A DNA stretch of 64,000 nt from contig JBAQUL010000012.1 in assembly GCA_049297495.1 (NCBI GenBank), positions 43,616-107,615 of the forward strand, given 5' to 3'. A program made the position numbers and the translations under genes. Positions 6,226 through 29,385 of the stretch are shown here, piece after piece (position 1 is the stretch's first letter; the number at the start of each line of letters is the position of its first letter). Under the pieces are notes generated by a model. That model saw nothing but the letters and a program-made list of their open reading frames with translations. It did not search any database and had not been told where the DNA came from. Source of the DNA: Candidatus Moraniibacteriota bacterium. GTDB lineage: Bacteria > Patescibacteriota > Minisyncoccia > Moranbacterales > UBA2206.

Positions 6226-6230
6226 CCTTT

Positions 6231-10610: not shown

Positions 10611-10647
10611 AAAAAAATCCCCCGCTTTGGCAGGGGATTTTTTTATG
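10611..10647. terminator. Bidirectional intrinsic terminator (aaaaaaatcccc-cgctttggca-ggggattttttt) between convergent genes
   Basis: Seen in sequence: GC stem flanked by A7 and T7 tracts. Confidence 0.7.
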
Positions 10648-12145
10648 CTCCTCCAATTCCTAGGATTGGAACTGGTTCAGGGAAGACAAAGGAATTAAGG
10701 ATTGTGGCACCATCTTTTTCATCAGTAAAGAAGAGCTTTTCTAGGCCATTATTGTGGATGACAAAAGGTGTCTCTAGGCTGCCACTAATCAGATCCAGGC
10801 AGTTGCGATGATCGCGCGCGTCGAGTTCGATTATCTTTGTGTATTTTCCAACACTAAAAATGATGTGCTCATAGTCTTTGTACCATTGGATATTTCTTAG
10901 GTTTTCGGAGTAGCGTGTTATATTGTTCAGATCATTTTCATAACGAATTGGTTGTACGGTCCAATTACGAGTGTAGTATACAGAGATTTCGTTATTACTA
11001 TAAAAAAGCAATTTTTTCCCATCATTAGAAAAGTGCATTTCTGCTACTTGACTTCCGAGTGCTCGGAAATATTTTTCATTTTCTCCATAGTTATAGATAA
11101 AAAGATTTTGATTTTGATCAAGAAAGGCGATACGAAATTCGTCGTAAACGGTGATTCTTTTTATGGTTGGGTTTGTTGTATCAGGAAAGCTATTGGTAAT
11201 TTGAATTTTTTCCGATTTTCCATCAAGACTGGTCTTGAAAATAAGATTATTAGGCGATTGGACAAAATAAACACCGTTATAGGCCAAGTCGTATGCGCTG
11301 ATGTCGCTCGCGATTTTGGTTATGTCCGTTGCGTCTTTGAAATTTGCCCGAAAAAGCGATGTGCCCTCCAAAAAGAAGAGATAACCTTTTTCTTTTGGAT
11401 CCCACCTTACATAGCGAATATCATTTTTTCCAAAAAAAGTGTTTAGGTTTGTTGTGCTATTGTCACTAAGATCAATGACGAAATAGGCGGTCTGGAATTG
11501 ATTTTCCAGTGAACTTGTTTTTAATTCTACCGCATTATTTTTTTCCACAGGGACGGAAAGATAATTTTCATCCGGCGACCACTCGATATTTTCCTTCTTA
11601 TCCTCCGCAAGAAGTTTCCATCCAGTCAGTGTGTAATTGTTGATAACGAGTTTACTGTCCAGGTCTAATTCTTTTACCAAGAGTGCATTTTCTGTGTTGG
11701 TTGTGAAAGCAATGAAGCGATTCCTGGGTGACGTGAAAAATTTATCAATTCCACGTGTTGATTCATAGAGGGTTTTTTCGTAATTCTTTCTCGTCAGAAC
11801 GACATTCCAAAATTCACTAGAGACGCCACTGTGGACGTCAATTTTTTTATTCCAAGAATAAAAATCTTTTGCGGAGATTTCAATTTCGTAATCCGCAGGA
11901 AGGAGGCCCGAGAGGTTGAATGAGTTGTTGATTCTGTTTGGGGTAGCTGTTTCATTGGCATTGCCATTGAGCGTCGTAGTGATGTTTTGCGGATTAGCCT
12001 TAAAAGAAATCGTTCCGCTATAGACGAAAACACCTCGATGCCAATCGAAGCGGTAACCGCGAGCTTCCAAGACGATAATCGGGGTAATTATGAAGAAAAT
12101 TAAGACGAGTGACCAAAAAAATAGAGTACGTTTGAATCTTTCCAT
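10643..12145 (-). CDS. Membrane-anchored protein with a predicted beta-propeller (TolB/PD40-like) ectodomain, hypothetical
   Basis: 500 aa; N-terminal TM (FFWSLVLIFFIITPIIVL); repetitive beta-strand-rich sequence; similar architecture to 38840-40186. Confidence 0.4.
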   Translation of the reverse strand: MERFKRTLFFWSLVLIFFIITPIIVLEARGYRFDWHRGVFVYSGTISFKANPQNITTTLNGNANETATPNRINNSFNLSGLLPADYEIEISAKDFYSWNKKIDVHSGVSSEFWNVVLTRKNYEKTLYESTRGIDKFFTSPRNRFIAFTTNTENALLVKELDLDSKLVINNYTLTGWKLLAEDKKENIEWSPDENYLSVPVEKNNAVELKTSSLENQFQTAYFVIDLSDNSTTNLNTFFGKNDIRYVRWDPKEKGYLFFLEGTSLFRANFKDATDITKIASDISAYDLAYNGVYFVQSPNNLIFKTSLDGKSEKIQITNSFPDTTNPTIKRITVYDEFRIAFLDQNQNLFIYNYGENEKYFRALGSQVAEMHFSNDGKKLLFYSNNEISVYYTRNWTVQPIRYENDLNNITRYSENLRNIQWYKDYEHIIFSVGKYTKIIELDARDHRNCLDLISGSLETPFVIHNNGLEKLFFTDEKDGATILNSFVFPEPVPILGIGGA

Positions 12146-12269
12146 GGATAAATACTAGCTGGATTTGCGGTTTTTGTCTAGCCTGGTATTTAGGGTGCGC
12201 CCTAACTTGAAAAAGGGGCTTTATCGGGTTAATTTCAGCTAGAGGAAGGAGTGGGAGACGCTCTGACGA

Positions 12270-12296
12270 TTGACTAAGTAATAATTGTGCTATAAT
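12270..12296 (+). promoter_or_regulatory. Possible sigma70-like promoter TTGACT-15-TATAAT upstream of 12334
   Basis: Seen in sequence; the spacer is short (15 nt), so this is weak. Confidence 0.3.
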
Positions 12297-12333
12297 AAAT
12301 CATAAGGATAGGCGAATTAACTGAAGTTTTTAT

Positions 12334-13074
12334 ATGAGTCGGAATAGCAGTATATTATTAGTAGGAGCGTTTTGTTTAGTTGCCCTGATTTTTGGCAATG
12401 TTTTTTGGCAGATGTTTGCCCATGGCAATAATGAGGCTTTTGAAAAAATCAAAAAAGAAACAGATGCTAATTTGGCAAAAAAACAAATCGCTGCTGCTAC
12501 TTCGCCAGCTTCAGGTGCGCCGTCTGCTTTGGGCGCTTCAACGAATACTGTGCCAGAAAATAATTCAAGCGAATCAGGAGCTGCTCAGAGTTTGCCGCAA
12601 AAAGACGCCGATCCTCAAGCGGCGGAGTCGGAAGAAACTCCAGACAGTACAACGGAAAAGCCGAAAGATGATACGGAGGACTGGAAAACCTATACAGATG
12701 AAAAAAATAAATTTGAATTTAAATATCCAAGCGATGCTCAAATAGTTCATGGTGGAGATTTGGTCCGTGTTTCTCAAAATGATAAAACCTGGAAGCTTAG
12801 GGCATATTCTGATAAGGATAAGCTGGACCTGCAATCTTGGTATAATAAGGAGTTTTCAGAAAAGGAACGAAAAAATTGCACACTCACAGAGTCGACCTTA
12901 AAGGTGGGAAGTTATGAGACAAAATATGTTAATCCTAACTCCGGACAAACGGAATGTGAGAAACCGGGTTATTATTCAATCAGTAGCACTAAAGAGCGGG
13001 TAGTTAGAGTGGAGCTTGGCGATGAGACGATGGATAATGTGAATAAAATTTTGAAAACTTTCATATTTCAGTAG
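12334..13074 (+). CDS. Membrane-anchored hypothetical protein with a low-complexity Ala/Ser/Glu-rich linker and a C-terminal globular domain
   Basis: 246 aa; N-terminal TM ILLVGAFCLVALIFGNVFW; no recognisable catalytic motif. Confidence 0.4.
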   Translation: MSRNSSILLVGAFCLVALIFGNVFWQMFAHGNNEAFEKIKKETDANLAKKQIAAATSPASGAPSALGASTNTVPENNSSESGAAQSLPQKDADPQAAESEETPDSTTEKPKDDTEDWKTYTDEKNKFEFKYPSDAQIVHGGDLVRVSQNDKTWKLRAYSDKDKLDLQSWYNKEFSEKERKNCTLTESTLKVGSYETKYVNPNSGQTECEKPGYYSISSTKERVVRVELGDETMDNVNKILKTFIFQ

Positions 13075-14410: not shown

Positions 14411-15523
14411 ATGGCCAAACGCGAACGACATGGAGTGAATAAAAATTTACTTTTCGTAGTGCTTCTTCTCATTACTTTTGGCCTGGCGATGATCGCTTCA
14501 GCCGGAATCGCTTATTCTCGTAGTCGTTTTGGCGATTCCTATTATTTTTTTAAGCATCAACTCCTCTACGGTGTTTTACCGGGATTTTTTGTTTTATATG
14601 TTGCGCAAAAAATTGATTATAACTTTTGGAAAAAAATCGCTTTCCCTCTTTTTATCTTAAGTATTTTCTTTCTTGTTTTAGTCTTTGTGCCAGGAGTTGG
14701 CTCGAAGATATATGGCGCCAGTCGCTGGCTCCAATTGGGTCCATTTTCTTTCCAACCTTCGGAAATGTTAAAATTATCGATTATTATCTACCTCTCGGCT
14801 TGGCTCGAGAGTCGCGCTGAAAAAGTGAAAGATTTCTATGAAGGCTTGATTCCCTTTCTTGCCGTGGTGGGAGTTGTCAGTTTTCTTTTGGAAAAACAGC
14901 CGGACATGGGAACGCTAGGCGTGATCATTTTTATTGCCATGTCAATATTTTTCATTTCAGGCGCCCGACTTTCACATATGTTTATGATTGCTGCTTCTGG
15001 ATTTGCCGCGCTGGCCATTCTCATTAAATTTGAATCCTATCGTATGGATCGTTTTTTGGTTTTTCTTCACCCCGAGCTTGATCCGCGTGGGATTGGCTAT
15101 CAAATCAATCAAGCGCTTCTTGCAATCGGTTCCGGGGGAATTTTTGGAGTAGGCTTGGGCCATAGTTTGCAAAAATTCAACTACTTACCGGAACCGGTGG
15201 GCGATTCAATTTTTGCTATTATCGGAGAGGAGCTGGGCATGATTGGTGTTGTTACTTTGATTTTGTTGTTTTTGTCTCTTGCGATGATTGGTTTTCGGAT
15301 TGCCAAGAATGCCCCTGATCGCTTTTCCCAACTCACGGCGATTGGCATTACATGCTGGATCACTTTTCAAGCGTTCATTAATATTTCAGCCATCTCCGGA
15401 CTCATTCCACTCACCGGAATTCCTTTGCCATTCATTAGTTATGGTGGAACATCATTGGTTTTTTTGATGGCAGGAATCGGGGTGCTTTTGAATATTTCCA
15501 AGCAGACAAGTTTGAATAATTGA
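14411..15523 (+). CDS. ftsW: SEDS-family peptidoglycan glycosyltransferase (FtsW/RodA)
   Basis: 370 aa, 10 TM; GGIFGVGLGHSLQKFNYLPEPVGDSIFAIIGEELG SEDS signature; position upstream of murG in the dcw-type order favours FtsW. Confidence 0.8.
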   Translation: MAKRERHGVNKNLLFVVLLLITFGLAMIASAGIAYSRSRFGDSYYFFKHQLLYGVLPGFFVLYVAQKIDYNFWKKIAFPLFILSIFFLVLVFVPGVGSKIYGASRWLQLGPFSFQPSEMLKLSIIIYLSAWLESRAEKVKDFYEGLIPFLAVVGVVSFLLEKQPDMGTLGVIIFIAMSIFFISGARLSHMFMIAASGFAALAILIKFESYRMDRFLVFLHPELDPRGIGYQINQALLAIGSGGIFGVGLGHSLQKFNYLPEPVGDSIFAIIGEELGMIGVVTLILLFLSLAMIGFRIAKNAPDRFSQLTAIGITCWITFQAFINISAISGLIPLTGIPLPFISYGGTSLVFLMAGIGVLLNISKQTSLNN

Positions 15524-15532
15524 TTTTTTAAT

Positions 15533-17569
15533 ATGAAAAGGTTGATTAAAAACTTTAAAGAAGTCTCCAAATCCGACGCCCAAATCGCTGGCGGTAAAGG
15601 CGCATCGCTTGGTGAGATGACGCAAGCAGGAGTTCCAGTTCCTCCAGGTTTTGTTGTGCTCTCCGAAGCGTTTGAGCAGTTTCTCTCCGAAACGGATTTG
15701 AATGTGGAAATTGAGGCAATTCTCAAAACTGTGGATAATCAGAAAATGCATACGGTGGAAAATGCATCAGAAGAAATTCAAGCGCTAATTCTCCAAGCTA
15801 AGATGCCGGAGGATATTGCAAAAGAGATTCAGGAAAACTTCAAAAAACTTGATGCCAAGTTTGTGGCCGTGAGATCAAGTGCCACCGCCGAAGATGGCGC
15901 CGAAGCGGCTTGGGCGGGGCAGCTAGACAGTTATCTCAATACGAACCAAGAAGCACTTCTTAGAAACGTCCAAAAATGCTGGGCATCACTTTTTACGCCA
16001 AGAGCTATTTTTTATCGTTTTGAAAAAAAACTGCACAAGCAAAAAATTTCCGTGGCAGTCGTCATTCAAAAAATGATTCAAAGTGAAATTTCTGGCATTG
16101 CCTTTTCGGTGCATCCGGTGACAGAAGACTATAATCAAATGATTATCGAAGCCGGCTTTGGTTTGGGCGAAGCGATTGTGTCTGGGTCGATTACTCCCGA
16201 TGCCTATGTGGTGAGTAAAAGTTCGAGAAAAATAGAGGACATCAATATTTCCCAGCAGTCCAAGGGGCTTTTCAGAAAAGAATCTGGTGGTAATGTTTGG
16301 CAAGATATTCCTGAAAAAGAAGGCAAAAAACAAAAGCTGACAAAAAAGCAAATCCTGGAATTATCAGATTTGATCATGAAAATCGAAGACCACTATCAAT
16401 TTCCGGTGGACATCGAGTGGGCATATGAAAACAAGAAATTCTATATTGTGCAATCGAGGCCGATTACAACACTTTTTAAAAAGGAAGACGTGATTGATGG
16501 AAAGCTGATCAAATATATGCAGCGGGACTATAAGCTTCGGGATTTATCTATAACTTTCTGGTCGCTGCTTAATCCTAATTTTTTGAAAGAGATATATTAC
16601 AAAGAAGCGCTGTATGTAATGAATAGAGGATTAGTTACTTCATACATACGCTCAGAAGATGCCGAAAGAATTAATAATGACTTATCTGAGGCCATAAAAA
16701 GGGATTCTGGATATATATCCAATGCACTAAAGGAGGGTGTGCGTACGCTAGCTTTAGTGAAAAGAACTGCTGGGAAAAATATTTGCGAGGGCATTATAAA
16801 AAAGGATGCTTTGAAACTATTCGAAGAGGCGGAAAATAGTTGGAATCAATTTGGGATTTTTTTTGAATTTACTCATGCGCTGGGAAGGATTGACGCGAAG
16901 CTATCAAAAGCTCAAATAGACAGATTGAGTAAGTTTCATAATGATAGAAAAAGCGTGTTTTTAGATTTTTTTAAATTTCTAGAAAATCTTTGCTTGAGTG
17001 TTTCAAGTAACGATCCGAAGATTAAACAAAAAAACCTCGCCTATCTGACTATTCCCGAGATAAAAAAGTATTTAACGGGTAAATTAGATTGCCAAGAAAT
17101 AAATAGATTGCAATCTAGCCGACAAAAGGGTTATCTATATCATGCATATTCAGCAAAAAAAGAAGGTGAAATAATTTCGGATTTAAAGGGAATACGGGCG
17201 AAAGAACTGCTCTCGAGAATAGATTCTGAGGAAAATAGTGAGTTAGCTGGCGTGAGTGTGTCTAGCGGTAAGGTGACTGGAGAGGTTAAAATTATATCGC
17301 TAAACACGAAGCTAAAAAATGAAGATGTTTCCAGGAAAATAATCGTCACGACAATGACTACACCAAGCATGGATATTTTTTTGAAAAAAGTTAGAGGGAT
17401 AGTGACGGAAGAGGGTGGCGCATTATGTCACGCAGCGATTTTTGCGAGAGAGGCAAAAATCCCAACGATTACTCTGGTTAAAAATATTACCAATATCTTA
17501 AAAGACGGCGATTTAGTGGAAGTTGACGCCAATGAGGGGGTGGTCAGGGTTTTGAAAAGAAAAAGTTGA
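15533..17569 (+). CDS. PEP-synthase/rifampin-phosphotransferase-like enzyme: N-terminal PPDK_N ATP-grasp domain, about 250 aa middle domain of unknown function, C-terminal PEP-utilising phosphohistidine swivel domain; no PEP/pyruvate TIM-barrel domain
   Basis: N-terminus aligns by eye with PpsA N-terminal domain (GGKGASLGEM, VAVRSSATAEDG, FPVDIEWAYENKKFYIVQSRP); C-terminus has GxVxGxVKII...TTMTTP...TEEGGALCHAAIFAREAKIP mobile-domain signature with catalytic His. Confidence 0.75.
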   Translation: MKRLIKNFKEVSKSDAQIAGGKGASLGEMTQAGVPVPPGFVVLSEAFEQFLSETDLNVEIEAILKTVDNQKMHTVENASEEIQALILQAKMPEDIAKEIQENFKKLDAKFVAVRSSATAEDGAEAAWAGQLDSYLNTNQEALLRNVQKCWASLFTPRAIFYRFEKKLHKQKISVAVVIQKMIQSEISGIAFSVHPVTEDYNQMIIEAGFGLGEAIVSGSITPDAYVVSKSSRKIEDINISQQSKGLFRKESGGNVWQDIPEKEGKKQKLTKKQILELSDLIMKIEDHYQFPVDIEWAYENKKFYIVQSRPITTLFKKEDVIDGKLIKYMQRDYKLRDLSITFWSLLNPNFLKEIYYKEALYVMNRGLVTSYIRSEDAERINNDLSEAIKRDSGYISNALKEGVRTLALVKRTAGKNICEGIIKKDALKLFEEAENSWNQFGIFFEFTHALGRIDAKLSKAQIDRLSKFHNDRKSVFLDFFKFLENLCLSVSSNDPKIKQKNLAYLTIPEIKKYLTGKLDCQEINRLQSSRQKGYLYHAYSAKKEGEIISDLKGIRAKELLSRIDSEENSELAGVSVSSGKVTGEVKIISLNTKLKNEDVSRKIIVTTMTTPSMDIFLKKVRGIVTEEGGALCHAAIFAREAKIPTITLVKNITNILKDGDLVEVDANEGVVRVLKRKS

Positions 17570-17672
17570 AAAATAGTCGGGCTTGATGATAAAAATTAAC
17601 CCTGCTAAAATTTTTATGAAAAATTTTGAAATAAACATTAGTCCAGAAAAAGAGAGGAAAAAATTCAGTCAT

Positions 17673-18452
17673 ATGAAAGTTTTTCGAGTGAGGCATGGGG
17701 ATACGCAATATCATGAGCATACGCAAGGTAAAAAAATGGAACGGGAAGATCTTGATGTAACTCCTAAGGGAGAAATGCAAATGGACTCAGTCGCTAGAAT
17801 TATTGGACGAAGACTTAATAAAGAAAATGATGTCATATGCGTGATTGCTAGTCCAAGAGTGAGGACTCAGAATGGAAAGAAAATTTTTGAGGAATATTTC
17901 AAGAAAAAAGGTTTTAGCGTATTAAATAATAAGAGAATCGATCTACCTCAAGAAAGAATAAAAAGTGTTGATATTTACGATGATGCAGGAAATGTTGTCC
18001 CAGTGGGTGATGAAAAACATCCAGCGCTTTTCGAAAGAATTGTTTCAGATCTGGAAAAACGCACTCCGGAAGGAATGAGTAGAGATGCATATATGTTCGA
18101 AAGTGGTCATGAAAATTTGGAATCTTTCGAGGAAAGTAAAAAACGATCCAGGAGGCAACTGGCTGGATTCATGCGGATAGCCAAAAATATCCAACTTAAA
18201 TTTGATAAGCACATCGTCATTATTCAGATCGAGCATTGCGAAACACTGGATGATTTCTATGAGCAAGCAAGCGGTGGCGAATATTCTATGATTAGTGATT
18301 CAGGGCCAAAAAAGGGAGAAGTGGTGGAACTTGATATTCCGGTCGAGGGCAATGAAATAGAAGTGGAATTTATTGGAAGAGAAAGGGGCAAGAAAAGAAA
18401 AGTAAGATTTGATTATTTATCGAAAAACTTTCTGCAAGAAGAAAAAAAATAG
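17673..18452 (+). CDS. Histidine-phosphatase superfamily (PGAM-like branch) protein (ORF opens at 17583; conserved RHG start at 17673)
   Basis: MKVFRVRHGDTQY (RHG motif), VIASPRVRTQNG (SPxxRAxQTA-like), later H in IIQIEHCETL. Confidence 0.5.
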   Translation: MKVFRVRHGDTQYHEHTQGKKMEREDLDVTPKGEMQMDSVARIIGRRLNKENDVICVIASPRVRTQNGKKIFEEYFKKKGFSVLNNKRIDLPQERIKSVDIYDDAGNVVPVGDEKHPALFERIVSDLEKRTPEGMSRDAYMFESGHENLESFEESKKRSRRQLAGFMRIAKNIQLKFDKHIVIIQIEHCETLDDFYEQASGGEYSMISDSGPKKGEVVELDIPVEGNEIEVEFIGRERGKKRKVRFDYLSKNFLQEEKK

Positions 18453-18494
18453 AAAAAGACTATTTCAAGAGATAAATTTTAAAGTTAGATATCT

Positions 18495-19478
18495 ATGGTA
18501 TCATCCGAAGACAGAGAAATCATTTTTGGCATTTGTCATAAACTGAAAAAAGAGGCAGGGTTAGATATTAATGAAAGTACTGTCGATAAACTCTCAATGC
18601 AAGGTTTTAATAGCGAGGTTTATATGGCCAGGGCTGATAAAGGAATTATCATCCACATATTGAAGCCTGCTGAAGAACAAATAAGGCAAAACATCAATAG
18701 AAAGTTGATGGGCGTTTCAAAGCTGATCAAGTCTTTTATTGAAATTCCCAGTGCCGAATTTTTTTATGAAGAAACGCTTGAAGACGGTCGATTTATTTTC
18801 GTACAGGAAATGCTTCCGGGCAAAAATTGGGGCAGGAGAAAGCTGGAAGACGATAAGATTGTGGATGAGTTTTATCCTCCGGAAAATAAGAGATATTTTG
18901 AGCAATTGAACACAATTCTTGTTAATCTGCATAAAATTAAATTTACTAAGTATGGTTGGTTGAAATCAGAAAAAAAAGATGTCAACGGCACTTATGAAAG
19001 CTGGAGAGATTTTCTTTTAATTGAATCAGAACTGTGGCTTAAAAACATTTGGGAAAATAGCGAAAAAGGATACGGGATATCTAGAGAAGTTCTTTCGAAT
19101 GTGAAAAATAAACTTGCTGATTTGTATAATAAGAACGATCATTTATTTGAATCTGGTTTGGCATCTCTGGTTCACGGCGATATGATCAATCCCGGAAACG
19201 TGCTAATAGAAGATGCTAGAATTTCTGGAATTATTGATTTTGAATGGTCTCTAGCAGGTGATGCGGCCTGGGAATTCGCCTATACCGGCAATCCAATGAT
19301 TCAGCATTATTTTGATTTTTGTGATGAGGTGGGAGTAAATTGCGATAGGAATTTATTTTTGAAAAAAATGAAATTTTATAAGATTTTATGGTTACTTTGG
19401 GCAGTTAATGTTCATGCGCAAGGTAAGGAGTTAAAGAAAGCTTTGTTTAAAGAATTTATTGAAAGTTTGAATGCTTAG
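18495..19478 (+). CDS. APH/ChoK-fold kinase (phosphotransferase enzyme family)
   Basis: 327 aa; LVHGDMINPGNVLIED catalytic loop and IIDFEWS (DFE/DFG-like) motif. Confidence 0.55.
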   Translation: MVSSEDREIIFGICHKLKKEAGLDINESTVDKLSMQGFNSEVYMARADKGIIIHILKPAEEQIRQNINRKLMGVSKLIKSFIEIPSAEFFYEETLEDGRFIFVQEMLPGKNWGRRKLEDDKIVDEFYPPENKRYFEQLNTILVNLHKIKFTKYGWLKSEKKDVNGTYESWRDFLLIESELWLKNIWENSEKGYGISREVLSNVKNKLADLYNKNDHLFESGLASLVHGDMINPGNVLIEDARISGIIDFEWSLAGDAAWEFAYTGNPMIQHYFDFCDEVGVNCDRNLFLKKMKFYKILWLLWAVNVHAQGKELKKALFKEFIESLNA

Positions 19479-19480
19479 CT

Positions 19481-19591
19481 GGGATTGCCACCCAAGTTCT
19501 CAAAGATGGTGATTTGGTGGAGGTTGACGCTAATGATGGAATCGTTAGAATCATAAGGAAGGCAAAAGGAAATTTGGTAAAAAATCAATAA
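19481..19591 (+). pseudogene. Relic 3' fragment of a PEP-utilising phosphohistidine swivel domain gene (no start codon, about 37 codons)
   Basis: Frame-2 translation GIATQVLKDGDLVEVDANDGIVRIIRKAKG* matches the C-terminus NILKDGDLVEVDANEGVVRVLKRKS of 15533-17569 and NILKNGDEIEMDMKTGEIRVV of 21370-22914; DNA diverged at synonymous sites. Confidence 0.6.
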
Positions 19592-19604
19592 TCATAAAAT
19601 TTTT

Positions 19605-20453
19605 ATGAAAAAACAAGCAAAAAAATTGGCGATTTTTGAAGGCCAGAAAATTCGGCGGATTTGGGATACGGAAAAAGAACTGTGGTATTTTTCGGTTATT
19701 GATATAATTCAAGCGCTGACCCAGCAAGCCGACTATCAGACCGCCAGGAAATACTGGAATAAGCTCAAAGAAAGGCTTAGAAAGGAAGGAAACCAGTCGG
19801 TGACAAATTGTCACCAACTGAAATTTGAAGCGACGGATGGGAAATTTTATCTTTCTGATGCTGCTAGCGTGGAGACAATTTTGCGCTTAGTTCAATCAGT
19901 GCCTAGCCCAAAAGCAGAACCAATTAAGCTTTGGCTGGCGAAGGTTGGCTATGAGCGAGTACAAGAAATCTCTGATCCAGAAAAAGCTCTGAACCGCAGT
20001 CGCGATTATTGGCAAAGGATGGGGCGCAGTGAAAAGTGGATTCAGCAAAGAATGATGGGGCAAGAAATCAGGAATAAATTGACGGATTATTGGAAAGATA
20101 ATGAGGTGAAAGAGCAAAATGAATATGCGATTTTGACAAACATAATTCACCAGGAGTGGACGGATCTTTCAGTCAAAGAACATAAAAATCTTAAGAAGCT
20201 CAAGACAGAAAATTTGCGTGATCACATGACTGACGCAGAATTGGTTTTTACCGCTCTCGCAGAGCTGTCTACACGGCAAATTGCCGAAACGATGGAAGCG
20301 AAAGGTCTTCGTGAAAATAAAATACCGGCGAAACGTGGCGGACGAGTGGCCAAAAACGCTCGATTGGAATTGGAGCAAAAAACTGGCAAAAGAGTGGTTA
20401 GTGGAAATAATTTCAAGTTTTTGTCGGGGCAGAGAAAGTTAAAAGCAAAATAA
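19605..20453 (+). CDS. Bro-N/DinD-like (DNA-damage-inducible protein D family) protein, often phage/mobile-element associated
   Basis: 282 aa; N-terminal IFEGQKIRRIWDTEKELWYFSVIDIIQAL Bro-N-like segment and C-terminal RDHMTDAELVFTALAELSTRQIAE...KRGGRVAKNARLELEQKTGKRVVS resembling DinD. Confidence 0.5.
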   Translation: MKKQAKKLAIFEGQKIRRIWDTEKELWYFSVIDIIQALTQQADYQTARKYWNKLKERLRKEGNQSVTNCHQLKFEATDGKFYLSDAASVETILRLVQSVPSPKAEPIKLWLAKVGYERVQEISDPEKALNRSRDYWQRMGRSEKWIQQRMMGQEIRNKLTDYWKDNEVKEQNEYAILTNIIHQEWTDLSVKEHKNLKKLKTENLRDHMTDAELVFTALAELSTRQIAETMEAKGLRENKIPAKRGGRVAKNARLELEQKTGKRVVSGNNFKFLSGQRKLKAK

Positions 20454-20495
20454 AAAGTTTTTTTAATCGGTTAAGTATTAATAATATAAAAAAAT

Positions 20496-21344
20496 ATGGA
20501 ACAAAACGAATCAAGTATGTTTATGCTTCGGCACACCATAAAGCCAAAGGGAGAGGACCTTAAATCGGAAAGATATCCTGGCGCTTCTGAACGTGGTGTG
20601 GATTTGGCGAAAGAGAGAACAAAGGAAGAAATTTTGAGCATGATTGAAAAAGCAAAGCCGGGAACAGTGGTGATTATTACTGGCGCGTCTGAAGTGGATA
20701 GGACGAAGTCAGCGGGAGAAATATATGGAGATGAGCTTCAGGAATTACTCAAGGATAACCCGGGCTATTTGGTTATCACAAGGAGCGAAATTCAAGATAT
20801 GCGAAGTCAGAAGGAGGGTGGTAACGCACTCAATAAATTGACGGAAATTGTTAAGAGTAATCCTGATAAAAAGATTATTATTGATTTTCCACTATTCTTG
20901 AGGGAGTTTGCTTTTGGTGCTGGGCGATGGACGGAAAAAAGTGGAGATCCTACTGAATATTTTCAAGCATTGCTCAAAAAGCACAATAATGATGAAATGG
21001 CATGTGTCAAGGATTGGATTGAAAACGAAGGGCGCATTGATAAGTTGTCTTTGCAAGGACCGAATCCAGCCGAGACAGCCAAGGAGCATGTCGCAGGACT
21101 AAAAAGGATTAATGATTTTGCTCGAAAGCTGATCGGAGAGAGTCGGCCAATCATGGTGGGCGGTGTGGGACATAGTGTGAATTTGGATGCCACCGCAATA
21201 TATCTTTCCAATAATGGTCAAGTGACGATGGAGGGATTTGAAAAGCTGGGTGGAGAATTGATAAAGGAAACCGAGCTGATGCAGCTTGAGACAAAAGATG
21301 GTAAAACCATTTTCAATTACAGAGGTAAGGAGTTCATTGTTTAA
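20496..21344 (+). CDS. Histidine-phosphatase-like protein (variant RHT motif), function unknown
   Basis: FMLRHTIKPKGE, ASEVDRTKSAGEIYG (SPxxRTxxTA-like) and VGGVGHSVNLDATAI (second His motif-like). Confidence 0.35.
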   Translation: MEQNESSMFMLRHTIKPKGEDLKSERYPGASERGVDLAKERTKEEILSMIEKAKPGTVVIITGASEVDRTKSAGEIYGDELQELLKDNPGYLVITRSEIQDMRSQKEGGNALNKLTEIVKSNPDKKIIIDFPLFLREFAFGAGRWTEKSGDPTEYFQALLKKHNNDEMACVKDWIENEGRIDKLSLQGPNPAETAKEHVAGLKRINDFARKLIGESRPIMVGGVGHSVNLDATAIYLSNNGQVTMEGFEKLGGELIKETELMQLETKDGKTIFNYRGKEFIV

Positions 21345-21369
21345 CTAATTAGCTTAATGGTAAAAACCC

Positions 21370-22914
21370 ATGGATGCGAAAGAGTTGAAAAGCTATCTGA
21401 AAGAAAGTGAGCTTGATATCCAAAATGCAAATGCGGCTTTGTTTTTGGCTGATTATATTTTTGGTTTTTATGCAAATTCTCACAAATTGCATGGTGTCAA
21501 TTTTAGTCCTGTCTGCTCATATTTTTCCTATTCAAAGCTGAGTGCTTTTTATCAGATAATAAATAAGAAATTCATTGTTGATTTGAGTGAAAAAATTTAC
21601 AAGAATTTCAAAAAAAACAGAAAAAGCTTTGAGGAGATGGTAGGAGTTCATCAAAACTTGACGAGAAAATTTGATCTGACTTGGCGGGAATATCAGAAAG
21701 CGAAAAAGCAGGGTTTGAGTGAGAAAATTTTAGGTGAATTCTATCGAAAATTTGAAAATATTTCTCGCTCGTACTGGTATAACGCAGTGGCCTGCGAGGA
21801 TAAAGGGGCAATTATTGAGAGAGAAATTATTCCCTCATTTGCTAGACGGAATAATCTTTCCGTAGAGAAAGCTCAAAATATAGTTACAATATTGTCGCAT
21901 CCGGATGAACAATCCGTTTTCAATTTTGAGCGGAAAGAATTTTTGCAAATTTGCCTTTTGATTTTTCAAAAGAAACTAATTGTAAAGACAGAGGAGGATA
22001 TTATCGCGCAAGTTCTTGGTGATAAGGAATTGAAAAATAAAATAAATTCTTATGTAAGGCATTATTTTTGGGTAAAGACGGATTTTTACAGGGCCACAGA
22101 GATAACGAAAGACTCTTTAATCAAAGACATCATTCAAGAATTAAAGAAAAAATCAAAAAAGGAAATCGAAAAAGAACTTCTTGACATCGACAAAAATTTT
22201 GAGCGGATTGGGATTAGGAAGAAAAAGATATTGCGAGATAGTCGACTGAAGAGAGAAGATATGGATGAGCTATATTTTTCAAGAAAAACGATATATTGGA
22301 TGGATCAGAGAAAAATGGGAATGATGAAAAATATTTATTATGTGTTTAGTTTATTGGGCGATATCGCCGCTTGCTATGATATCGATTATGCAAATATTAT
22401 TTTGTATAGCACTGAGGATTTGGATAGGCTATTGCTGTCTGGCAGGAAATTGGACAAAAAAATATTAGCAAAAAGGCATGCAGGCACTTTTATGTCATGT
22501 GAACGTGGAGAAATAACGAAATTCTTTTATGGTAACGTAGGAGAAGAGATGTTCAAGATTGCGACGAATGTTGAAAAAAAAGAATTGAAGGGAATTGTGG
22601 CGAGCAAAGGAAGTGGTGGAATAGTCAGAGGAAAAGTGAAAATAGTTTTGAACCCGAAAGAAATAAGTTTCCACACTGGTGAAATTCTTGTAACCAGTAT
22701 GACAAGGGTTGAATTCGTGCCTTTGATGAGAAAGGCCCGGGCTATAATCACCAATGAAGGCGGGTTAGCATGTCATGCGGCGATAATTTCTCGGGAACTG
22801 GGCATTCCCGCAATTATCGGAACAAAAAACGCTACCAATATTTTGAAAAATGGAGACGAGATTGAGATGGATATGAAAACCGGAGAGATAAGGGTGGTAA
22901 TCTTAGTGGTTTAA
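21370..22914 (+). CDS. Protein with about 400 aa N-terminal domain of unknown function and a C-terminal PEP-utilising phosphohistidine swivel domain (no ATP-grasp)
   Basis: C-terminus GIVASKGSGGIVRGKVKIV...LVTSMTRVEFVPLMRKARAIITNEGGLACHAAIISRELGIPAIIG with catalytic His; N-terminus has no recognisable motifs. Confidence 0.65.
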   Translation: MDAKELKSYLKESELDIQNANAALFLADYIFGFYANSHKLHGVNFSPVCSYFSYSKLSAFYQIINKKFIVDLSEKIYKNFKKNRKSFEEMVGVHQNLTRKFDLTWREYQKAKKQGLSEKILGEFYRKFENISRSYWYNAVACEDKGAIIEREIIPSFARRNNLSVEKAQNIVTILSHPDEQSVFNFERKEFLQICLLIFQKKLIVKTEEDIIAQVLGDKELKNKINSYVRHYFWVKTDFYRATEITKDSLIKDIIQELKKKSKKEIEKELLDIDKNFERIGIRKKKILRDSRLKREDMDELYFSRKTIYWMDQRKMGMMKNIYYVFSLLGDIAACYDIDYANIILYSTEDLDRLLLSGRKLDKKILAKRHAGTFMSCERGEITKFFYGNVGEEMFKIATNVEKKELKGIVASKGSGGIVRGKVKIVLNPKEISFHTGEILVTSMTRVEFVPLMRKARAIITNEGGLACHAAIISRELGIPAIIGTKNATNILKNGDEIEMDMKTGEIRVVILVV

Positions 22915-22967: not shown

Positions 22968-24071
22968 ATGCGTATTATTCTTGCTGGAGGAGGAACTGGT
23001 GGACATCTCACGCCGCTTGTGGCGGTGGCGAGGAAGATTAGGGAAAAAGTTCCTGAAGTCGAGTTTTATTTCATCGGACCAAAAGGAAAGCTGGAAGATG
23101 ACATTATGGGGCAAGAAAATATTCCCATCAGAAATATTCAGACGGGAAAGCTGCGACGCTATTTTTCTTTCCGAAACATTTTGGATTTCTTTAAGATTCC
23201 GTTGGGAATCGTAAAGTCTATGTGGCTTTTATTGGTTTTGATGCCTGACGCTATTTTTTCCAAGGGTGGGTACGCTTCGTTTCCTGTTGTTGTCGCTGGC
23301 TGGCTTTATCGCATTCCAATTCTCATCCATGAGTCTGATTCAAATCCAGGCTTGGCCAATTCGATGCTGGGAAAATTTTCTCAGCGTGTCGCTGTGGCCT
23401 ATCCAGAAGCGGAAAAATATTTTCCGGCGGCGCAGGTGGTACTGACTGGCAATCCTTTGAGCGCCACAATCGATAAAGGTGATGTTAATAGGGCACGGCA
23501 GGTATTTGGCCTTACAGAATCAAAAAAAGTTATCTATGTGACTGGTGGATCGCAAGGAGCTAGGAGTATTAACGAAAAGATTTTACGCATATTGCCCCAG
23601 CTCTTGTATAAATATCAGATTATTCATCAGACGGGAGAAAGTAATTTTAAAGAAGTTGTGCGAATGGCAGGGGAACTTGGCTTTAAGGCCGGTAGGGAGG
23701 GATACTACCCAGTCGCTTTTATAAAAGAAAATATCGAAGATATTTTTGCGGTGGCTGATTTGGTAATTTCTCGTGGTAGTGCCACGACTATTTCTGAAAT
23801 TGCCGCCAATAAGAAGCCGGCCATTCTTATTCCTCTGGAGACTTCTGCCAGCGATCATCAAAGAATGAATGCCTATTCTCTGGCACGAATCGGTGGTTGC
23901 GTGGTGATGGAGGAAAATAATATGGGAGAGCATATGCTTTTAGAAAAAATTGATGAAATTATGGATAACGAAACATTGCGCAATAGCCTCTCCGCAAATA
24001 TTGGGACATTTTATCATCCAGATGCAGCAGAAAAAATCGCCGATGGAATTTTGGGCATGATTAAAGAATAA
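22968..24071 (+). CDS. murG: Undecaprenyldiphospho-muramoylpentapeptide beta-N-acetylglucosaminyltransferase MurG
   Basis: MRIILAGGGTGGHLTPLVAVARK N-terminal G-loop, GT28 architecture, C-terminal GGSQGAR...E motif; dcw context. Confidence 0.85.
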   Translation: MRIILAGGGTGGHLTPLVAVARKIREKVPEVEFYFIGPKGKLEDDIMGQENIPIRNIQTGKLRRYFSFRNILDFFKIPLGIVKSMWLLLVLMPDAIFSKGGYASFPVVVAGWLYRIPILIHESDSNPGLANSMLGKFSQRVAVAYPEAEKYFPAAQVVLTGNPLSATIDKGDVNRARQVFGLTESKKVIYVTGGSQGARSINEKILRILPQLLYKYQIIHQTGESNFKEVVRMAGELGFKAGREGYYPVAFIKENIEDIFAVADLVISRGSATTISEIAANKKPAILIPLETSASDHQRMNAYSLARIGGCVVMEENNMGEHMLLEKIDEIMDNETLRNSLSANIGTFYHPDAAEKIADGILGMIKE

Positions 24072-25506: not shown

Positions 25507-26172
25507 ATGCGTAAAACAGCATTTGCCAATGGTGAATATTATCATATTTATAATCGCGGGGTGGATAAGCGAGAGGTGTTTTTGTGTGATGGAGATTATA
25601 AACGATTTATTGTGGGGATGAATGAATTTAATTGTAGTAAGGCTATTGGTAGTTTGCGAGATAAGCGGGTACGTGAGAATCAGGAGTTGAGCTCCTGGAG
25701 CTCCAGGAGCTCAACTCCTGATTCTGTTCTACAGTCTTTAGTTCAAATTATCGCCTATTGTCTGAATTCAAATCATTATCACTTAATTCTGAGGCAAGTT
25801 AGCGAAAGGGGTATTGAAAAGTTCATGCACAAACTAAGTACTGGCTATACTAATTATTTCAATAAAAAATCTAATCGAACAGGCGCGCTTTTTCAAGGAC
25901 GCTACAAATCCATTCATATTAACTCCAATGAATATCTGTTGCATCTGTCGGTTTACGTAAACGCCAATCACGCGGTTCATAATTACGAAGAAAAAGACTG
26001 GCCATATTCTAGTTATTTAGATTATACTGGGAAGAGAACGGGAAAACTCTGTGAAAAAGTAACAATCTTGGGGCAGTTTGATGACAATCTACTGGAATAC
26101 GAAAAGTTTATGCGAAATAATACGAACTATTTTAGGGAGAAAAAGGAAATGGAGAAATATATTTTGGAATAG
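25507..26172 (+). CDS. HUH Y1 transposase of the COG1943 / REP-associated tyrosine transposase (RAYT, IS200-like TnpA) family
   Basis: GEYYHIYNRGVDKREVF...DYKRF (motif I), NHYHLIL (HUH), YFNKKSNRTGALFQGRYKSI...EYLLHLSVYVNANHAVHNYEEKDWPYSSY (catalytic Tyr region); contains an in-frame 16-codon palindromic insertion. Confidence 0.85.
   Translation: MRKTAFANGEYYHIYNRGVDKREVFLCDGDYKRFIVGMNEFNCSKAIGSLRDKRVRENQELSSWSSRSSTPDSVLQSLVQIIAYCLNSNHYHLILRQVSERGIEKFMHKLSTGYTNYFNKKSNRTGALFQGRYKSIHINSNEYLLHLSVYVNANHAVHNYEEKDWPYSSYLDYTGKRTGKLCEKVTILGQFDDNLLEYEKFMRNNTNYFREKKEMEKYILE
25677..25724. repeat. 48-bp perfect palindrome (gaatcaggagttgagctcctggag | ctccaggagctcaactcctgattc) inside the RAYT coding sequence, in frame (encodes NQELSSWSSRSSTPDS)
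   Basis: Seen in sequence; exact reverse complement of the two 24-nt arms. Confidence 0.9.
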
Positions 26173-28998: not shown

Positions 28999-29385
28999 AT
29001 GCAAGGTACAGCAAGCGTCATCCTGAGCATCTTGGTTGTTGTAATAGTAATTTTGCTTTTTAAAGGGGGGAAATCTAATTATAATAAGGCGAATAATTTT
29101 TTAAAGTTATTAAAAGAAAAAGATTTTGAAAAATGGAAAGAACTTGGCGAGCCGAGGATAATGTTAATCATGCCAAATGCAATCATTACAAACAAGGGTC
29201 CTTATATAAGTGATATTCGGGCGTATGTTAAATATGCTAATTTTGGGGATTTCTCTGATCAAGAATTGAAAATTGCCCTTGAGGATGTCCGAAACGTTTT
29301 TTCCATTAAACCTTTTGATCTTATTGCAGTGATTGCTATTTATGCCATATTTATAGGAGCGCTTGTTTACGCGACATTATTTTAA
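28999..29385 (+). CDS. Small two-TM membrane protein, hypothetical (overlaps murB start by 23 nt)
   Basis: 128 aa; hydrophobic N- and C-terminal helices. Confidence 0.35.
   Translation: MQGTASVILSILVVVIVILLFKGGKSNYNKANNFLKLLKEKDFEKWKELGEPRIMLIMPNAIITNKGPYISDIRAYVKYANFGDFSDQELKIALEDVRNVFSIKPFDLIAVIAIYAIFIGALVYATLF

What the first reader, a model, noticed from the sequence alone, without database searches (positions are those of the whole stretch)
15533..22914. 7.4 kb phosphotransfer island inserted between ftsW and murG: an RPH-like ATP-grasp/phosphohistidine enzyme, a second swivel-domain protein, two PGAM-like histidine phosphatases, an APH-fold kinase and a DinD/Bro-N-like protein
The ftsW-murG-murC-murB order is one of the most conserved in bacteria, yet seven unrelated genes sit here between ftsW and murG. 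The 15533 protein has the domain order of rifampin phosphotransferase (ATP-grasp, then a substrate-binding middle domain, then the His swivel domain) rather than PEP synthase, and lacks the PEP-binding TIM barrel. The 21370 protein keeps only a catalytic-His swivel domain fused to a 400-aa domain with no recognisable motifs. A third relic swivel fragment lies between them. The island also contains two enzymes that form phospho-His intermediates (PGAM-like phosphatases), an APH-fold kinase and a phage-associated DinD/Bro-N-like gene. I cannot place this co-occurrence of three phospho-His carrier modules, histidine phosphatases and a small-molecule kinase in any pathway I know. It could be a small-molecule (antibiotic/xenobiotic) phosphorylation-dephosphorylation or phosphorelay module, possibly mobile or defence-related.
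Basis: partly seen in the sequence, partly recalled or inferred. Interest (0 to 1): 0.7.

Follow-up and report, generated by a model that had tools for sequence, protein, structure and literature searches.

The report
Multi-module RPH-like kinase cluster in CPR bacterium
The genes between ftsW and murG are a partly decayed copy of a gene cluster found widely in ultra-small CPR bacteria and DPANN archaea and apparently not yet described, in which one ATP-binding module appears to serve many rifampin-phosphotransferase-like acceptor modules that sit beside phosphatases; what it phosphorylates is unknown.

Summary
Six ORFs and one gene relic lie between ftsW and murG of a Candidatus Moraniibacteriota (CPR) genome, and every domain call was confirmed.

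- **A** (15533-17569) is ATP-grasp + short helical domain + His swivel, with no TIM barrel.
- **B and E** are divergent histidine phosphatases with intact catalytic cores.
- **C** is an APH-fold kinase.
- **19463-19591** is the 3' relic of a third swivel gene.

The set is not a one-off island. Dozens of CPR and DPANN genomes carry one ATP-grasp protein next to tandem arrays of 2-10 very divergent "helical domain + swivel" paralogs. Some are fused into polyproteins (up to ATP-grasp + 8 modules, 3761 aa), and the arrays are interspersed with histidine-phosphatase-like, HAD and HD phosphatases. The order swivel-B-C-swivel and the pair E-F recur in close relatives. Only D (Bro-N, PADLOC candidate PDC-S13) is an interloper.

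The most likely mechanism is a multi-acceptor version of the two-component small-molecule dikinases (PpsAB, CreHI, HpeHI): ATP to swivel His to small-molecule acceptor, followed by dephosphorylation. The substrates and the physiological role are unknown.

The parts
14411..15523 (+). ftsW (upstream flank, not part of the system)
   Evidence: PF01098 E 5e-107; TIGR02614 395 bits against a 337.5 cut-off.
15533..17569 (+). A: fusion of the ATP-grasp nucleotide-binding module (aa 1-319) with a 'short' acceptor module (helical domain aa 320-567 with N-D-R-K at 471-474, then His-swivel aa 568-678 with catalytic H633).
   Evidence: PPDK_N E 1.5e-101 and PEP-utilizers E 4e-21. All PEPS and RPH NCBIfam equivalogs score below their cut-offs. 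The first 314 aa are 59% identical to standalone ATP-grasp proteins L001_7042 and L003_9038. The whole of A is 44% identical to the first 707 aa of the 1516-aa polyprotein in L090. Motif positions. The same ATP-grasp + short-module fusion occurs in L031, L041, L055 and L060.
17583..18452 (+). B: divergent histidine-phosphatase-superfamily protein (the start is probably the ATG at 17616, giving 278 aa).
   Evidence: His_Phos_1 23.4 bits against a 21.7 cut-off. A family of 6 proteins, all Moranbacteria-type, five with PF00300 on record. R26, H27, R83 and H207 are invariant. Orthologues at 73% (L089) and 65% (L088) occupy the same position between a swivel gene or an APH gene and the APH gene.
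18495..19478 (+). C: APH-fold small-molecule kinase.
   Evidence: PF01636 E 7e-12. HGDMINPGN at 227 and IDFE at 247. Orthologues at 64% (L089) and 61% (L088) lie directly after the B orthologue and directly before a short swivel gene.
19463..19591 (+). Relic: the last ~40 codons and stop codon of a deleted swivel-module gene.
   Evidence: tblastn and blastp matches to swivel C-termini; translation. It lies where L088 and L089 have an intact 357- or 393-aa swivel gene after the APH gene. About 130 nt here (19472-19612) align at about 75% identity to A's 3' end plus its downstream spacer, 17480-17620.
19605..20453 (+). D: Bro-N-domain protein, PADLOC defence candidate PDC-S13. An interloper, not part of the conserved system.
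   Evidence: PDC-S13 E 3e-117 and phrog_15286 E 9e-91. No homologue in any of the 90 related loci. Four small uncultured phage contigs carry relatives at 38-51% identity.
20496..21344 (+). E: very divergent histidine-phosphatase-superfamily protein, partner of F.
   Evidence: No Pfam hit. A family of 35 proteins, embedded in swivel arrays in 3 of 3 neighbourhoods examined (L085, L086, L087). In L087 the order is swivel-E-F-swivel. AF2 pLDDT 92.8, and Foldseek hits are all histidine-phosphatase superfamily. R12, H13, R69, T70, G225 and H226 are invariant.
21370..22914 (+). F: 'long' acceptor module, an RPH RIF-binding-domain-like helical domain (aa 1-400, D312-x-R314-K315) plus His-swivel (aa 401-514, catalytic H469), with no ATP-grasp.
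22968..24071 (+). murG (downstream flank, not part of the system)
   Evidence: TIGR01133 280 bits against a 250 cut-off.

Best explanation
The locus is a reduced, partly decayed copy of a CPR/DPANN-wide gene-cluster type. I read it as a multi-acceptor version of the two-component RPH-like small-molecule dikinases.

Proposed steps:
1. The ATP-grasp domain of A binds ATP and pyrophosphorylates the swivel histidine, A H633 in cis and F H469 in trans. The gamma-phosphate is hydrolysed, leaving His~P carrying the beta-phosphate.
2. Each swivel domain carries the phosphate to its own RIF-binding-domain-like helical domain. There the conserved [R/K]-D-x-R-K helix positions it for transfer to a bound small-molecule acceptor. 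Net reaction: ATP + X + H2O -> AMP + X-P + Pi.
3. The histidine phosphatases B and E, and HAD or HD phosphatases in other lineages, later remove a phosphate from the product or a derivative. This is the kinase-then-phosphatase logic of the Cre and Hpe pathways. The APH-fold kinase C phosphorylates a related small molecule.

D (Bro-N / PDC-S13) is an unrelated insertion. One further acceptor gene has been deleted, leaving a 40-codon relic.

Shown here:
- domain identities and folds;
- conservation of the catalytic His and the acceptor-site motif;
- recurrence of the gene set, and orthology and synteny with relatives;
- absence of a TIM barrel.

Inferred:
- charging of F in trans;
- the dikinase chemistry;
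- the small-molecule nature of the acceptors;
- the role of the phosphatases.

Unknown: the substrates. My preferred physiological reading, held weakly, is capture or processing of hydroxylated small molecules taken up from the host or the environment.
For: **1. Architecture**
- A is PPDK_N + swivel without a TIM barrel.

**2. Catalytic residues**
- The swivel His sits in the GGxx[CS]HAA motif in 181 of the 181 modules that entered the alignment; 187 of 195 single-module ORFs carry the motif.
- F D312, R314 and K315 are invariant in its family. They align to the RPH E667...K670 helix, whose R666, E667 and K670 form the acceptor site (PMC4844700).
- Across 181 paralog modules R314 is kept in 143, K315 in 126, D/E312 in 121 and R/K311 in 98.
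- The spacing from the motif to the His is 160 residues in A, 155 in F and 158 in RPH.

**3. Precedent for a split enzyme**
- HpeHI, CreHI and PpsAB have a separate ATP-grasp subunit and a RIF-BD-like + swivel subunit, and the His is essential (PMC12167813).

**4. Recurrence**
- At least 45 loci from Patescibacteria and DPANN carry 2-10 swivel paralogs. A standalone ATP-grasp gene of about 312 aa, 59% identical to A's N-terminus, was visible in about twenty of them; many loci are truncated contigs.
- Fusions of one ATP-grasp with 2-8 modules in a single ORF argue that one ATP-grasp serves many modules (L031 3761 aa, L055, L008, L041, L090).
- The family profile finds 7317 cluster representatives at E <= 1e-30.

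**5. Phosphatases belong to the set**
- The E family lies inside arrays in 3 of 3 neighbourhoods.
- B-C orthologue pairs are flanked by swivel genes in L088 and L089.
- Among 111 non-core ORFs inside 45 arrays, the commonest Pfam families are His_Phos_1, HAD, Hexapep, APH and HD.
- The catalytic cores of B and E are intact, and E has the histidine-phosphatase fold.

**6. The paralogs are old and distinct**
- For 173 of 188 N-domains the best match lies in another genome, not in the same array. This fits different acceptor specificities.
Against: - No substrate is known and no biochemistry exists for any member.
- Phosphorylation followed by dephosphorylation, with no modifying enzyme encoded in between, looks futile. 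The Cre and Hpe pathways encode oxidases or carboxylases between the two steps; these arrays mostly do not.
- Trans-charging of F by a fused ATP-grasp is untested. A's own swivel could monopolise it.
- RPH R666 aligns to a non-basic residue in F itself (M311), although R or K occupies that column in 98 of 181 paralogs.
- B, C and E are too divergent to place in any characterised subfamily. C's best PDB hits are Mph and Hyg kinases at E 0.3 only.
- The decay here (relic, D insertion) could mean the locus is losing function in this genome.
Confidence: 0.65

Rival explanations
1. Antibiotic or xenobiotic inactivation battery. The RPH-like modules and the APH-fold kinase each inactivate a different toxic small molecule by phosphorylation, forming a resistome for an epibiont exposed to host and community metabolites.
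For: RPH and APH are the two classic antibiotic-kinase folds. F's closest solved structure is RPH with rifampin bound. Many divergent paralogs would fit many different ligands. A CPR resistome survey counted rph-like genes as resistance-like genes (PMC8651080).
Against: All RPH equivalog models score far below their cut-offs (351.6 against 999; 255.9 against 1700). Phosphatases in the same operons would undo the inactivation. The arrays sit next to housekeeping genes and are conserved across both CPR and DPANN, which is unlike accessory resistance genes. Known relatives also act in catabolism and biosynthesis (PpsAB, CreHI, HpeHI, PigC).
Confidence: 0.15
2. Protein phosphorelay or regulatory device. 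The swivel modules are phospho-His carrier proteins charged by the ATP-grasp, and the histidine phosphatases (SixA-like) reset them. The output would be regulation or energy sensing rather than small-molecule phosphorylation.
For: The swivel domain is the same carrier used by PTS Enzyme I. B gives a faint SixA hit (E 0.007). Phosphatases always accompany the carriers.
Against: The helical domain keeps the RPH acceptor-site motif, which is needed only for transfer to a bound acceptor. No receiver, HPr-like or output domains occur in the arrays. E's nearest folds are small-molecule phosphatases: RosC, phosphoserine phosphatase, CobC and TIGAR. HAD and HD phosphatases replace the histidine phosphatases in other lineages.
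Confidence: 0.1
3. Mobile or anti-phage defence island inserted into the dcw cluster.
For: D is a PADLOC defence candidate with phage relatives. G+C is slightly lower (0.33-0.40) than the flanks (0.41-0.44). The ftsW-murG junction is empty in another CPR genome, L036. Related arrays hold AbiEii, PycTM and AAA_14/DUF4143 genes.
Against: No PADLOC hit for A, B, C, E or F. No integrase, tRNA or flanking repeats. Orthologous arrays occupy a conserved chromosomal position upstream of rplI-pyrG in several lineages. The paralogs are ancient, not recently diversified. The defence-type genes differ from locus to locus, as expected of passengers.
Confidence: 0.05
4. Ordinary split PEP synthase or PPDK whose TIM-barrel subunit is encoded elsewhere.
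For: The best NCBIfam hits by E-value are PEP synthase models. NCBI names F 'PEP-utilizing enzyme'.
Against: All PEPS and PPDK models score below their cut-offs, and they match only the ATP-grasp and swivel parts. The swivel is C-terminal as in RPH, not central. No TIM-barrel domain occurs in the window or in any of the array loci, whereas all 22 true PEPS in the outgroup loci have one. F's N-domain is the RIF-BD fold.
Confidence: 0.02

Closest known systems
Two-component small-molecule dikinases: phenylphosphate synthase PpsAB (Thauera), CreHI (Corynebacterium), HpeHI (Rhodococcus)
   Same: Both split the enzyme into an ATP-grasp subunit and a subunit made of a RIF-binding-domain-like fold plus a C-terminal His-swivel. 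Both have the catalytic His in GGxx[CS]HAA and adjacent genes. In the Cre and Hpe pathways a phosphatase later removes the phosphate (PMC12167813). F matches the HpeH/PpsA-type subunit, and the standalone ATP-grasp genes of relatives match HpeI/PpsB.
   Different: Here one ATP-grasp accompanies many (2-10) deeply divergent acceptor subunits, or is fused to 1-8 of them. In the window it is fused to a short acceptor module. The hosts are CPR and DPANN rather than aromatic degraders. No aromatic-catabolic genes are nearby. The accompanying phosphatases are histidine-phosphatase-superfamily, HAD or HD proteins. The substrates are unknown.
Rifampin phosphotransferase (RPH; PDB 5FBS, 5HV1)
   Different: NF041857 and NF000283 score far below their cut-offs. 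A's acceptor domain is about 250 aa against about 430 in RPH. F lacks the ATP-grasp. Identity is about 16%. The rifampin-contacting residues were not assessed.
PEP synthase / pyruvate phosphate dikinase
   Same: Homologous ATP-grasp (PF01326) and swivel (PF00391) domains, and presumably the same ATP -> His~P chemistry.
   Different: No PEP/pyruvate TIM-barrel domain. The swivel is at the C-terminus, not in the centre.
Histidine phosphatase superfamily, branch 1 (dPGM, PhoE, CobC, RosC, SixA)
   Same: B and E keep the RH(G)...R...H catalytic core, and E has the fold.
   Different: Extremely divergent: E has no Pfam or PDB sequence hit, and its TM-scores are 0.4-0.6. Both carry about 80-100 extra residues. 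They are specifically embedded in swivel arrays.
Glucan water dikinase with phosphoglucan phosphatases (plant starch)
   Same: A dikinase with a swivel His, paired functionally with dedicated phosphatases in a phosphorylate-then-dephosphorylate cycle. This is my own knowledge, plus the papers listed.
   Different: The domain order differs and GWD has carbohydrate-binding modules, which are absent here. This is an analogy only.

Membership tests
Two-component RPH-like small-molecule dikinase (PpsAB/CreHI/HpeHI type) | Acceptor subunit made of a RIF-binding-domain-like fold plus a C-terminal His-swivel, without an ATP-grasp | tested here: met
Two-component RPH-like small-molecule dikinase (PpsAB/CreHI/HpeHI type) | Separate ATP-grasp (PPDK_N) subunit encoded nearby | tested here: inconclusive
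   Relatives have a standalone protein of about 312 aa next to the F orthologue (L003, L004, L005, L011). In the window the ATP-grasp is fused to another acceptor module (A), so it is present in the locus but not as a separate subunit.
Two-component RPH-like small-molecule dikinase (PpsAB/CreHI/HpeHI type) | Conserved catalytic His in the GGxx[CS]HAA motif near the C-terminus | tested here: met
   A H633 and F H469; 181 of 181 aligned modules.
Two-component RPH-like small-molecule dikinase (PpsAB/CreHI/HpeHI type) | ATP-dependent phosphorylation of a phenolic or other small-molecule acceptor, giving AMP + Pi | not testable with these tools
   Needs enzyme assays.
Rifampin phosphotransferase (RPH) | Scores above the NCBIfam equivalog cut-off (NF041857 at 999; NF000283 at 1700) | tested here: not met
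   A scores 351.6 and 255.9; F scores 64.4 and 51.0.
Rifampin phosphotransferase (RPH) | Single chain with ATP-grasp, RIF-BD of about 430 aa, then swivel | tested here: inconclusive
   A has the domain order, but its middle domain is only about 250 aa. F has the full-size domain but no ATP-grasp.
Rifampin phosphotransferase (RPH) | Acceptor-site residues R666, E667 and K670 | tested here: inconclusive
   F D312 aligns to E667 and K315 to K670, both invariant. R666 aligns to M311 in F, but that column is R or K in 98 of 181 paralogs, and R314 is invariant nearby.
PEP synthase / PPDK | C-terminal PEP/pyruvate-binding TIM barrel (PEP-utilizers_C) | tested here: not met
   No Pfam hit in A or F. 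An HMM built from 22 PEPS C-domains finds nothing in the window or in the array loci.
Histidine phosphatase superfamily (branch 1) | RHG motif His plus second Arg and second His, and the alpha/beta fold | tested here: met
   B: Pfam 23.4 against 21.7; R26, H27, R83 and H207 invariant. E: R12, H13, R69 and H226 invariant; Foldseek top 50 hits all in the superfamily.
APH / eukaryotic-like small-molecule kinase fold | Pfam PF01636 above its cut-off, the catalytic HxD...N loop and the Mg-binding D of 'DFG' | tested here: met
   C: 46 bits against 23.2; HGDMINPGN at 227; IDFE at 247.
DinD (DNA-damage-inducible protein D) | Match to an NCBIfam DinD model | tested here: not met
   No such hit for D in NCBIfam. 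It has only a borderline Bro-N hit and a full-length PDC-S13 / phrog_15286 match.
Mobile genomic island | Integrase or transposase, tRNA or direct-repeat borders, presence on mobile elements | tested here: not met
   No tRNA. No flanking repeats at 15.5 or 22.9 kb. No recombinase among the six ORFs. The only transposase-like ORF (25507-26172) lies beyond murC.
Known anti-phage defence system (PADLOC) | HMM hits to system components | tested here: not met
   Only D hits, to the single-gene candidate PDC-S13. A, B, C, E and F have no hits at E <= 0.1.

The most novel reading that the evidence does not exclude
CPR bacteria and DPANN archaea share a modular 'one ATP-grasp, many acceptor modules' phosphorylation platform. 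It comprises up to 10 ancient, specificity-diverged RPH-like modules per genome, sometimes fused into one megaprotein, together with dedicated histidine-phosphatase, HAD or HD phosphatases. The platform would capture or process a panel of host-derived small molecules, or stand in for conventional kinases these reduced genomes lack. That would make it a hallmark metabolic device of the episymbiotic lifestyle. The window shows a decaying copy of it.
Probability: 0.3. Interest if true: 0.85.

Novelty: new variant of a known kind. Interest (0 to 1): 0.62.

Why it matters
CPR and DPANN organisms make up a large share of microbial diversity. Their genomes are about 1 Mb, and how they obtain and process metabolites from hosts is largely unknown. 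A gene cluster that takes 5-15 kb of such a genome is unlikely to be incidental. It is conserved across both radiations, and the family has thousands of cluster representatives. The enzyme type is now experimentally tractable, because HpeHI-style assays exist. One ATP-grasp protein could be tested against a panel of acceptor subunits and metabolite libraries. That would turn a block of 'PEP-utilizing enzyme / hypothetical protein' annotations into testable biochemistry. For annotation, it shows that these genes are neither PEP synthases nor rifampin-resistance genes.

Tried and rejected
- **PADLOC scan of all six proteins.** Only D hits, so a defence-system reading for the whole block was dropped.
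- **Search for a TIM-barrel partner.** An HMM of 22 PEPS C-domains plus tblastn found none, so split PEPS/PPDK was rejected.
- **Flanking repeats, tRNA and promoter or terminator signals.** There are no island borders, and the promoter and terminator counts are at chance level.
- **First phmmer survey.** It suggested that B, C and E had no relatives in 84 loci, so I provisionally treated them as unrelated insertions. Clustering, the family searches and the neighbourhoods overturned that. Only D stays excluded.
- **B-C as an insertion.** I considered this because of the roughly 130-nt similarity between A's 3' end and the relic region. I rejected it because swivel-B-C-swivel is the ancestral order in L088 and L089.
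- **Metagenome scan with C.** No relatives were found.
- **Sequence searches against PDB.** The E-family profile and C gave nothing useful. Fold comparison was needed for E.
- **Literature.** Eight full-text searches combined PEP-utilizing, PPDK_N, swivel, phenylphosphate synthase or RPH with Patescibacteria, CPR or DPANN. None turned up a description of the arrays. One resistome survey counts rph-like genes. The library is incomplete, so prior description cannot be excluded.
- **Recent tandem duplication or arms-race diversification of paralogs.** Rejected, because 173 of 188 N-domains have their best match in another genome.

Full report
**1. What is in the window**

The window comes from a Candidatus Moraniibacteriota (CPR/Patescibacteria) MAG. 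The 21370 protein is 100% identical to an NCBI protein of that organism, annotated 'PEP-utilizing enzyme'.

Between ftsW (14411-15523) and murG (22968-24071) lie six tightly packed + strand ORFs and one gene relic.

| Feature | Coordinates | Size | Key hits |
|---|---|---|---|
| A | 15533-17569 | 678 aa | PPDK_N ATP-grasp aa 17-319 (E 1.5e-101); PEP-utilizers swivel aa 602-669 |
| B | 17583-18452 | 289 aa | His_Phos_1, just above the gathering score |
| C | 18495-19478 | 327 aa | APH-fold kinase |
| relic | 19463-19591 | about 40 codons | C-terminus of a swivel domain |
| D | 19605-20453 | 282 aa | borderline Bro-N; full-length PADLOC PDC-S13 (E 3e-117); phrog_15286 |
| E | 20496-21344 | 282 aa | no Pfam hit |
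| F | 21370-22914 | 514 aa | swivel aa 435-505 |

- A matches every PEP synthase, PPDK, RPH and PigC model of NCBIfam only in its ATP-grasp and swivel parts, and always below the cut-off.
- The relic translates to ...LAGIATQVLKDGDLVEVDANDGIVRIIRKAKGNLVKNQ*, the C-terminal end of a swivel domain.
- No PEP/pyruvate TIM-barrel domain exists anywhere in the 64 kb.

**2. The two 'unknown' domains**

A profile of 36 F-family proteins hits the Listeria rifampin phosphotransferase structures (5FBS, 5HV1) at E 2e-25. F 244-505 aligns to RPH 604-866, the second half of the RIF-binding domain plus the swivel.

F's invariant D312, R314 and K315 fall on the RPH helix that carries R666, E667 and K670. Those residues hold the phosphate at the acceptor site, and the R666A and E667A variants lose rifampin inactivation (PMC4844700).

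A carries N-D-R-K at 471-474. The spacing from this motif to the catalytic His is 160 residues in A, 155 in F and 158 in RPH. A's 250-aa middle domain corresponds to the C-terminal half of the long domain.

**3. The set is not a one-off**

I examined neighbourhoods of F homologues and ran a pattern scan of GTDB representative genomes. I then called ORFs and ran phmmer and jackhmmer surveys on the loci.

The recurrent architecture is:
- one standalone ATP-grasp protein of about 312 aa, 59% identical to A's first 314 residues;
- tandem arrays of 2-10 proteins of about 350 aa ('short') or about 490 aa ('long'), each ending in a swivel domain.

At least 45 loci show it. Their labels are Moran-, Falkow-, Nealson-, Uhr-, Woese-, Komeili- and Doudnabacteria, other Patescibacteria, and Woese-, Micr-, Nano- and Iainarchaeota. 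The scan also returned about 23 ordinary 760-850-aa PEP synthases, each with a central swivel and a TIM barrel. These serve as an outgroup.

Other findings from the survey:
- **Fusions.** One ATP-grasp is fused with several modules in a single ORF: L031 (3761 aa, ATP-grasp + 8 modules), L055 (2019 aa, + 4), L041 (1399 aa, + 3) and L090 (1516 aa, + 3). The first 707 aa of the L090 protein are 44% identical to the whole of A.
- **The first module.** In the fusions that begin with the ATP-grasp, the next module is usually the short type, as in A (L031, L041, L055, L060).
- **Family size.** A profile search of 1.84 billion cluster representatives finds 7317 proteins at E <= 1e-30. Many are 900-2650 aa long with 2-6 matched stretches.
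- **Age of the paralogs.** For 173 of 188 N-domains the best match lies in another genome, and the median paralog has no BLAST-detectable partner in its own array.
- **Conservation across 181 modules.** The catalytic His is invariant. The acceptor motif [R/K]-D-x-R-K is largely kept: R in 143, K in 126, D/E in 121.

**4. Which of the six genes belong to the system**

An early phmmer survey suggested that B, C and E were foreign. That was wrong.

- **Clustering.** Among non-core ORFs inside arrays there are several very divergent families with an N-terminal RH motif, plus HAD, HD and hexapeptide-transferase families.
- **Pfam tally.** For 111 such ORFs from 45 arrays the order is His_Phos_1 (6), HAD (5), Hexapep (4), APH (3), HD (3). 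Most have no hit at all.
- **E.** Its family has 35 proteins and lies inside a swivel array in all three neighbourhoods inspected. In the closest relative, L087 (E 67% and F 75% identical), the order is swivel-E-F-swivel.
- **E's fold.** Its AlphaFold model (pLDDT 92.8) matches only histidine-phosphatase-superfamily structures, and R12, H13, R69 and H226 are invariant.
- **B.** Its family is small and Moranbacteria-specific, with R26, H27, R83 and H207 invariant.
- **B-C orthologue pairs** (65-73% and 61-64% identical):
  - L088: swivel342-HP-APH-swivel357
  - L089: APH-HP-APH-swivel393

The window order A(swivel)-B-C-relic is thus the same module, with the last swivel gene deleted to its final 40 codons.

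D has no homologue in any related locus. It is a PADLOC defence candidate with a few phage relatives. Other arrays carry different passengers: AAA_14/DUF4143, MerR, AbiEii and PycTM.

**5. Position**

In L002, L003 and the Moranbacteria genome L091, the F orthologue is the last gene of the array and lies directly upstream of rplI-pyrG. In this genome it lies upstream of murG instead.

In another CPR genome (L036) the order is mraY-murD-ftsW-murG-murC. The ftsW-murG junction there is empty, and a single short swivel gene follows murC.

So the cluster has moved in this lineage. However, there is no integrase, tRNA or border repeat. The dcw cluster of this genome is also broken elsewhere. G+C is only modestly lower than in the flanks.

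**6. Mechanism**

The closest characterised enzymes are the two-component small-molecule dikinases PpsAB, CreHI and HpeHI. In HpeHI, HpeI is the ATP-grasp and HpeH is the RIF-BD-like domain plus swivel. The two form only a transient complex, the His is essential, and HpeH alone exchanges phosphate between substrates (PMC12167813).

By homology I propose the following sequence:
1. A's ATP-grasp pyrophosphorylates a swivel His, H633 in cis and F's H469 in trans.
2. The gamma-phosphate is lost as Pi.
3. Each swivel delivers the beta-phosphate to an acceptor bound in its own helical domain.
4. B and E later remove a phosphate, as CreD does in the Cre pathway (my own knowledge).
5. C adds a second, conventional kinase activity.

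Shown here are the folds, motifs, recurrence, synteny and fusions. The chemistry, the trans-charging, the small-molecule nature of the acceptors and the role of the phosphatases are inferred.

The physiological role is open. I weakly prefer capture or processing of hydroxylated small molecules taken from the host or environment. That is the 'scavenging by phosphorylation' idea raised for HpeHI.

The alternatives are a drug or xenobiotic inactivation battery, a phospho-His relay reset by SixA-like phosphatases, and a defence island. The last is poorly supported.

**7. Novelty**

Split RPH-like dikinases are known, so this is not a new kind of enzyme. The new elements, as far as eight full-text searches could show, are:
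- the one-charger, many-acceptor organisation;
- its concentration in CPR and DPANN;
- the polyprotein fusions;
- the systematic company of very divergent histidine phosphatases.

The only related statement I found is a resistome survey that counted rph-like genes in CPR. I rate this a new variant of a known kind, with interest 0.62.

The window itself holds a reduced, partly decayed example: one fused charger and acceptor, one free acceptor, one relic, two phosphatases, one APH kinase and one passenger gene.

Noticed in passing
L031:4286-15571 (Woesearchaeota); also L055:5565-11624, L008:247-6228, L041:4178-8377, L090:2770-7320: Single ORFs of 1399-3761 aa fuse one ATP-grasp with 3-8 'helical domain + swivel' modules. 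L031 has 3 short and 5 long modules. The representative-library search shows many more proteins of 900-2650 aa with 2-6 modules.
   Followed up: partly
window 17480-17620 and 19472-19612: About 130 nt of A's 3' end plus the spacer up to the next ATG align at about 75% identity with the relic plus the spacer up to D's ATG. Both end in AAAATTTTTATGAAAAA. So the deleted gene and A shared their 3' end and downstream junction, and B's true start is probably the ATG at 17616.
   Followed up: partly
window 25507-26172 (+): A 221-aa ORF between murC and a P-type ATPase gives weak hits to IS200-like Y1 transposase (E 4e-7) and REP-associated tyrosine transposase (28 bits against an 80 cut-off). It is one of several interruptions of the dcw gene order in this genome (murC ... 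P-type ATPase 26188-28935 ... murB 29363-30379).
   Followed up: no
L085:12899-13459; L086:3215-4618, 5795-6517, 11761-12504; L088:2287-3411, 7731-9113: Swivel arrays in other genomes hold different passenger genes of defence or mobile type: PycTM next to the ATP-grasp gene, AAA_14/DUF4143 ATPases (twice in L088), MerR and AbiEii. The arrays seem to tolerate or attract such insertions, as with D here.
   Followed up: no
L002:10001-14502, L003:10001-14398, L091:10001-14178: The order F-orthologue, rplI, pyrG, rpmA(-) is conserved in three genomes of different CPR lineages. The window's F lies before murG instead, and neither rplI nor pyrG is in the window.
   Followed up: partly
L036:2135-10480: A CPR MAG labelled Saccharibacteria has an intact mraY-murD-ftsW-murG-murC block followed directly by a lone 351-aa short swivel gene. 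This is a second case of a swivel module next to cell-wall genes.
   Followed up: partly
L013:5251-6348 and five other loci; L025:1917-2891; L042:4446-5276; L003:11521-11793: Hexapeptide-repeat acyltransferases (6 loci), phosphate acetyl/butyryl-transferase-like proteins (2) and acylphosphatases at array edges (3) recur near arrays. This may hint at acyl-phosphate chemistry.
   Followed up: no
window 9042-10439 (+) and 10643-12145 (-): A DUF4012 protein and a 500-aa protein with a weak beta-propeller hit lie upstream of the trmD-ftsW block. Both are uncharacterised.
   Followed up: no
Loci L012, L024, L042, L044, L049, L076 and L014, L017, L037, L061: Contigs carrying typical CPR/DPANN-style swivel arrays are labelled 'uncultured Gammaproteobacteria' or 'Methanosarcinales' in their MAG records. 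The taxon labels of these third-party assemblies may be unreliable.
   Followed up: no
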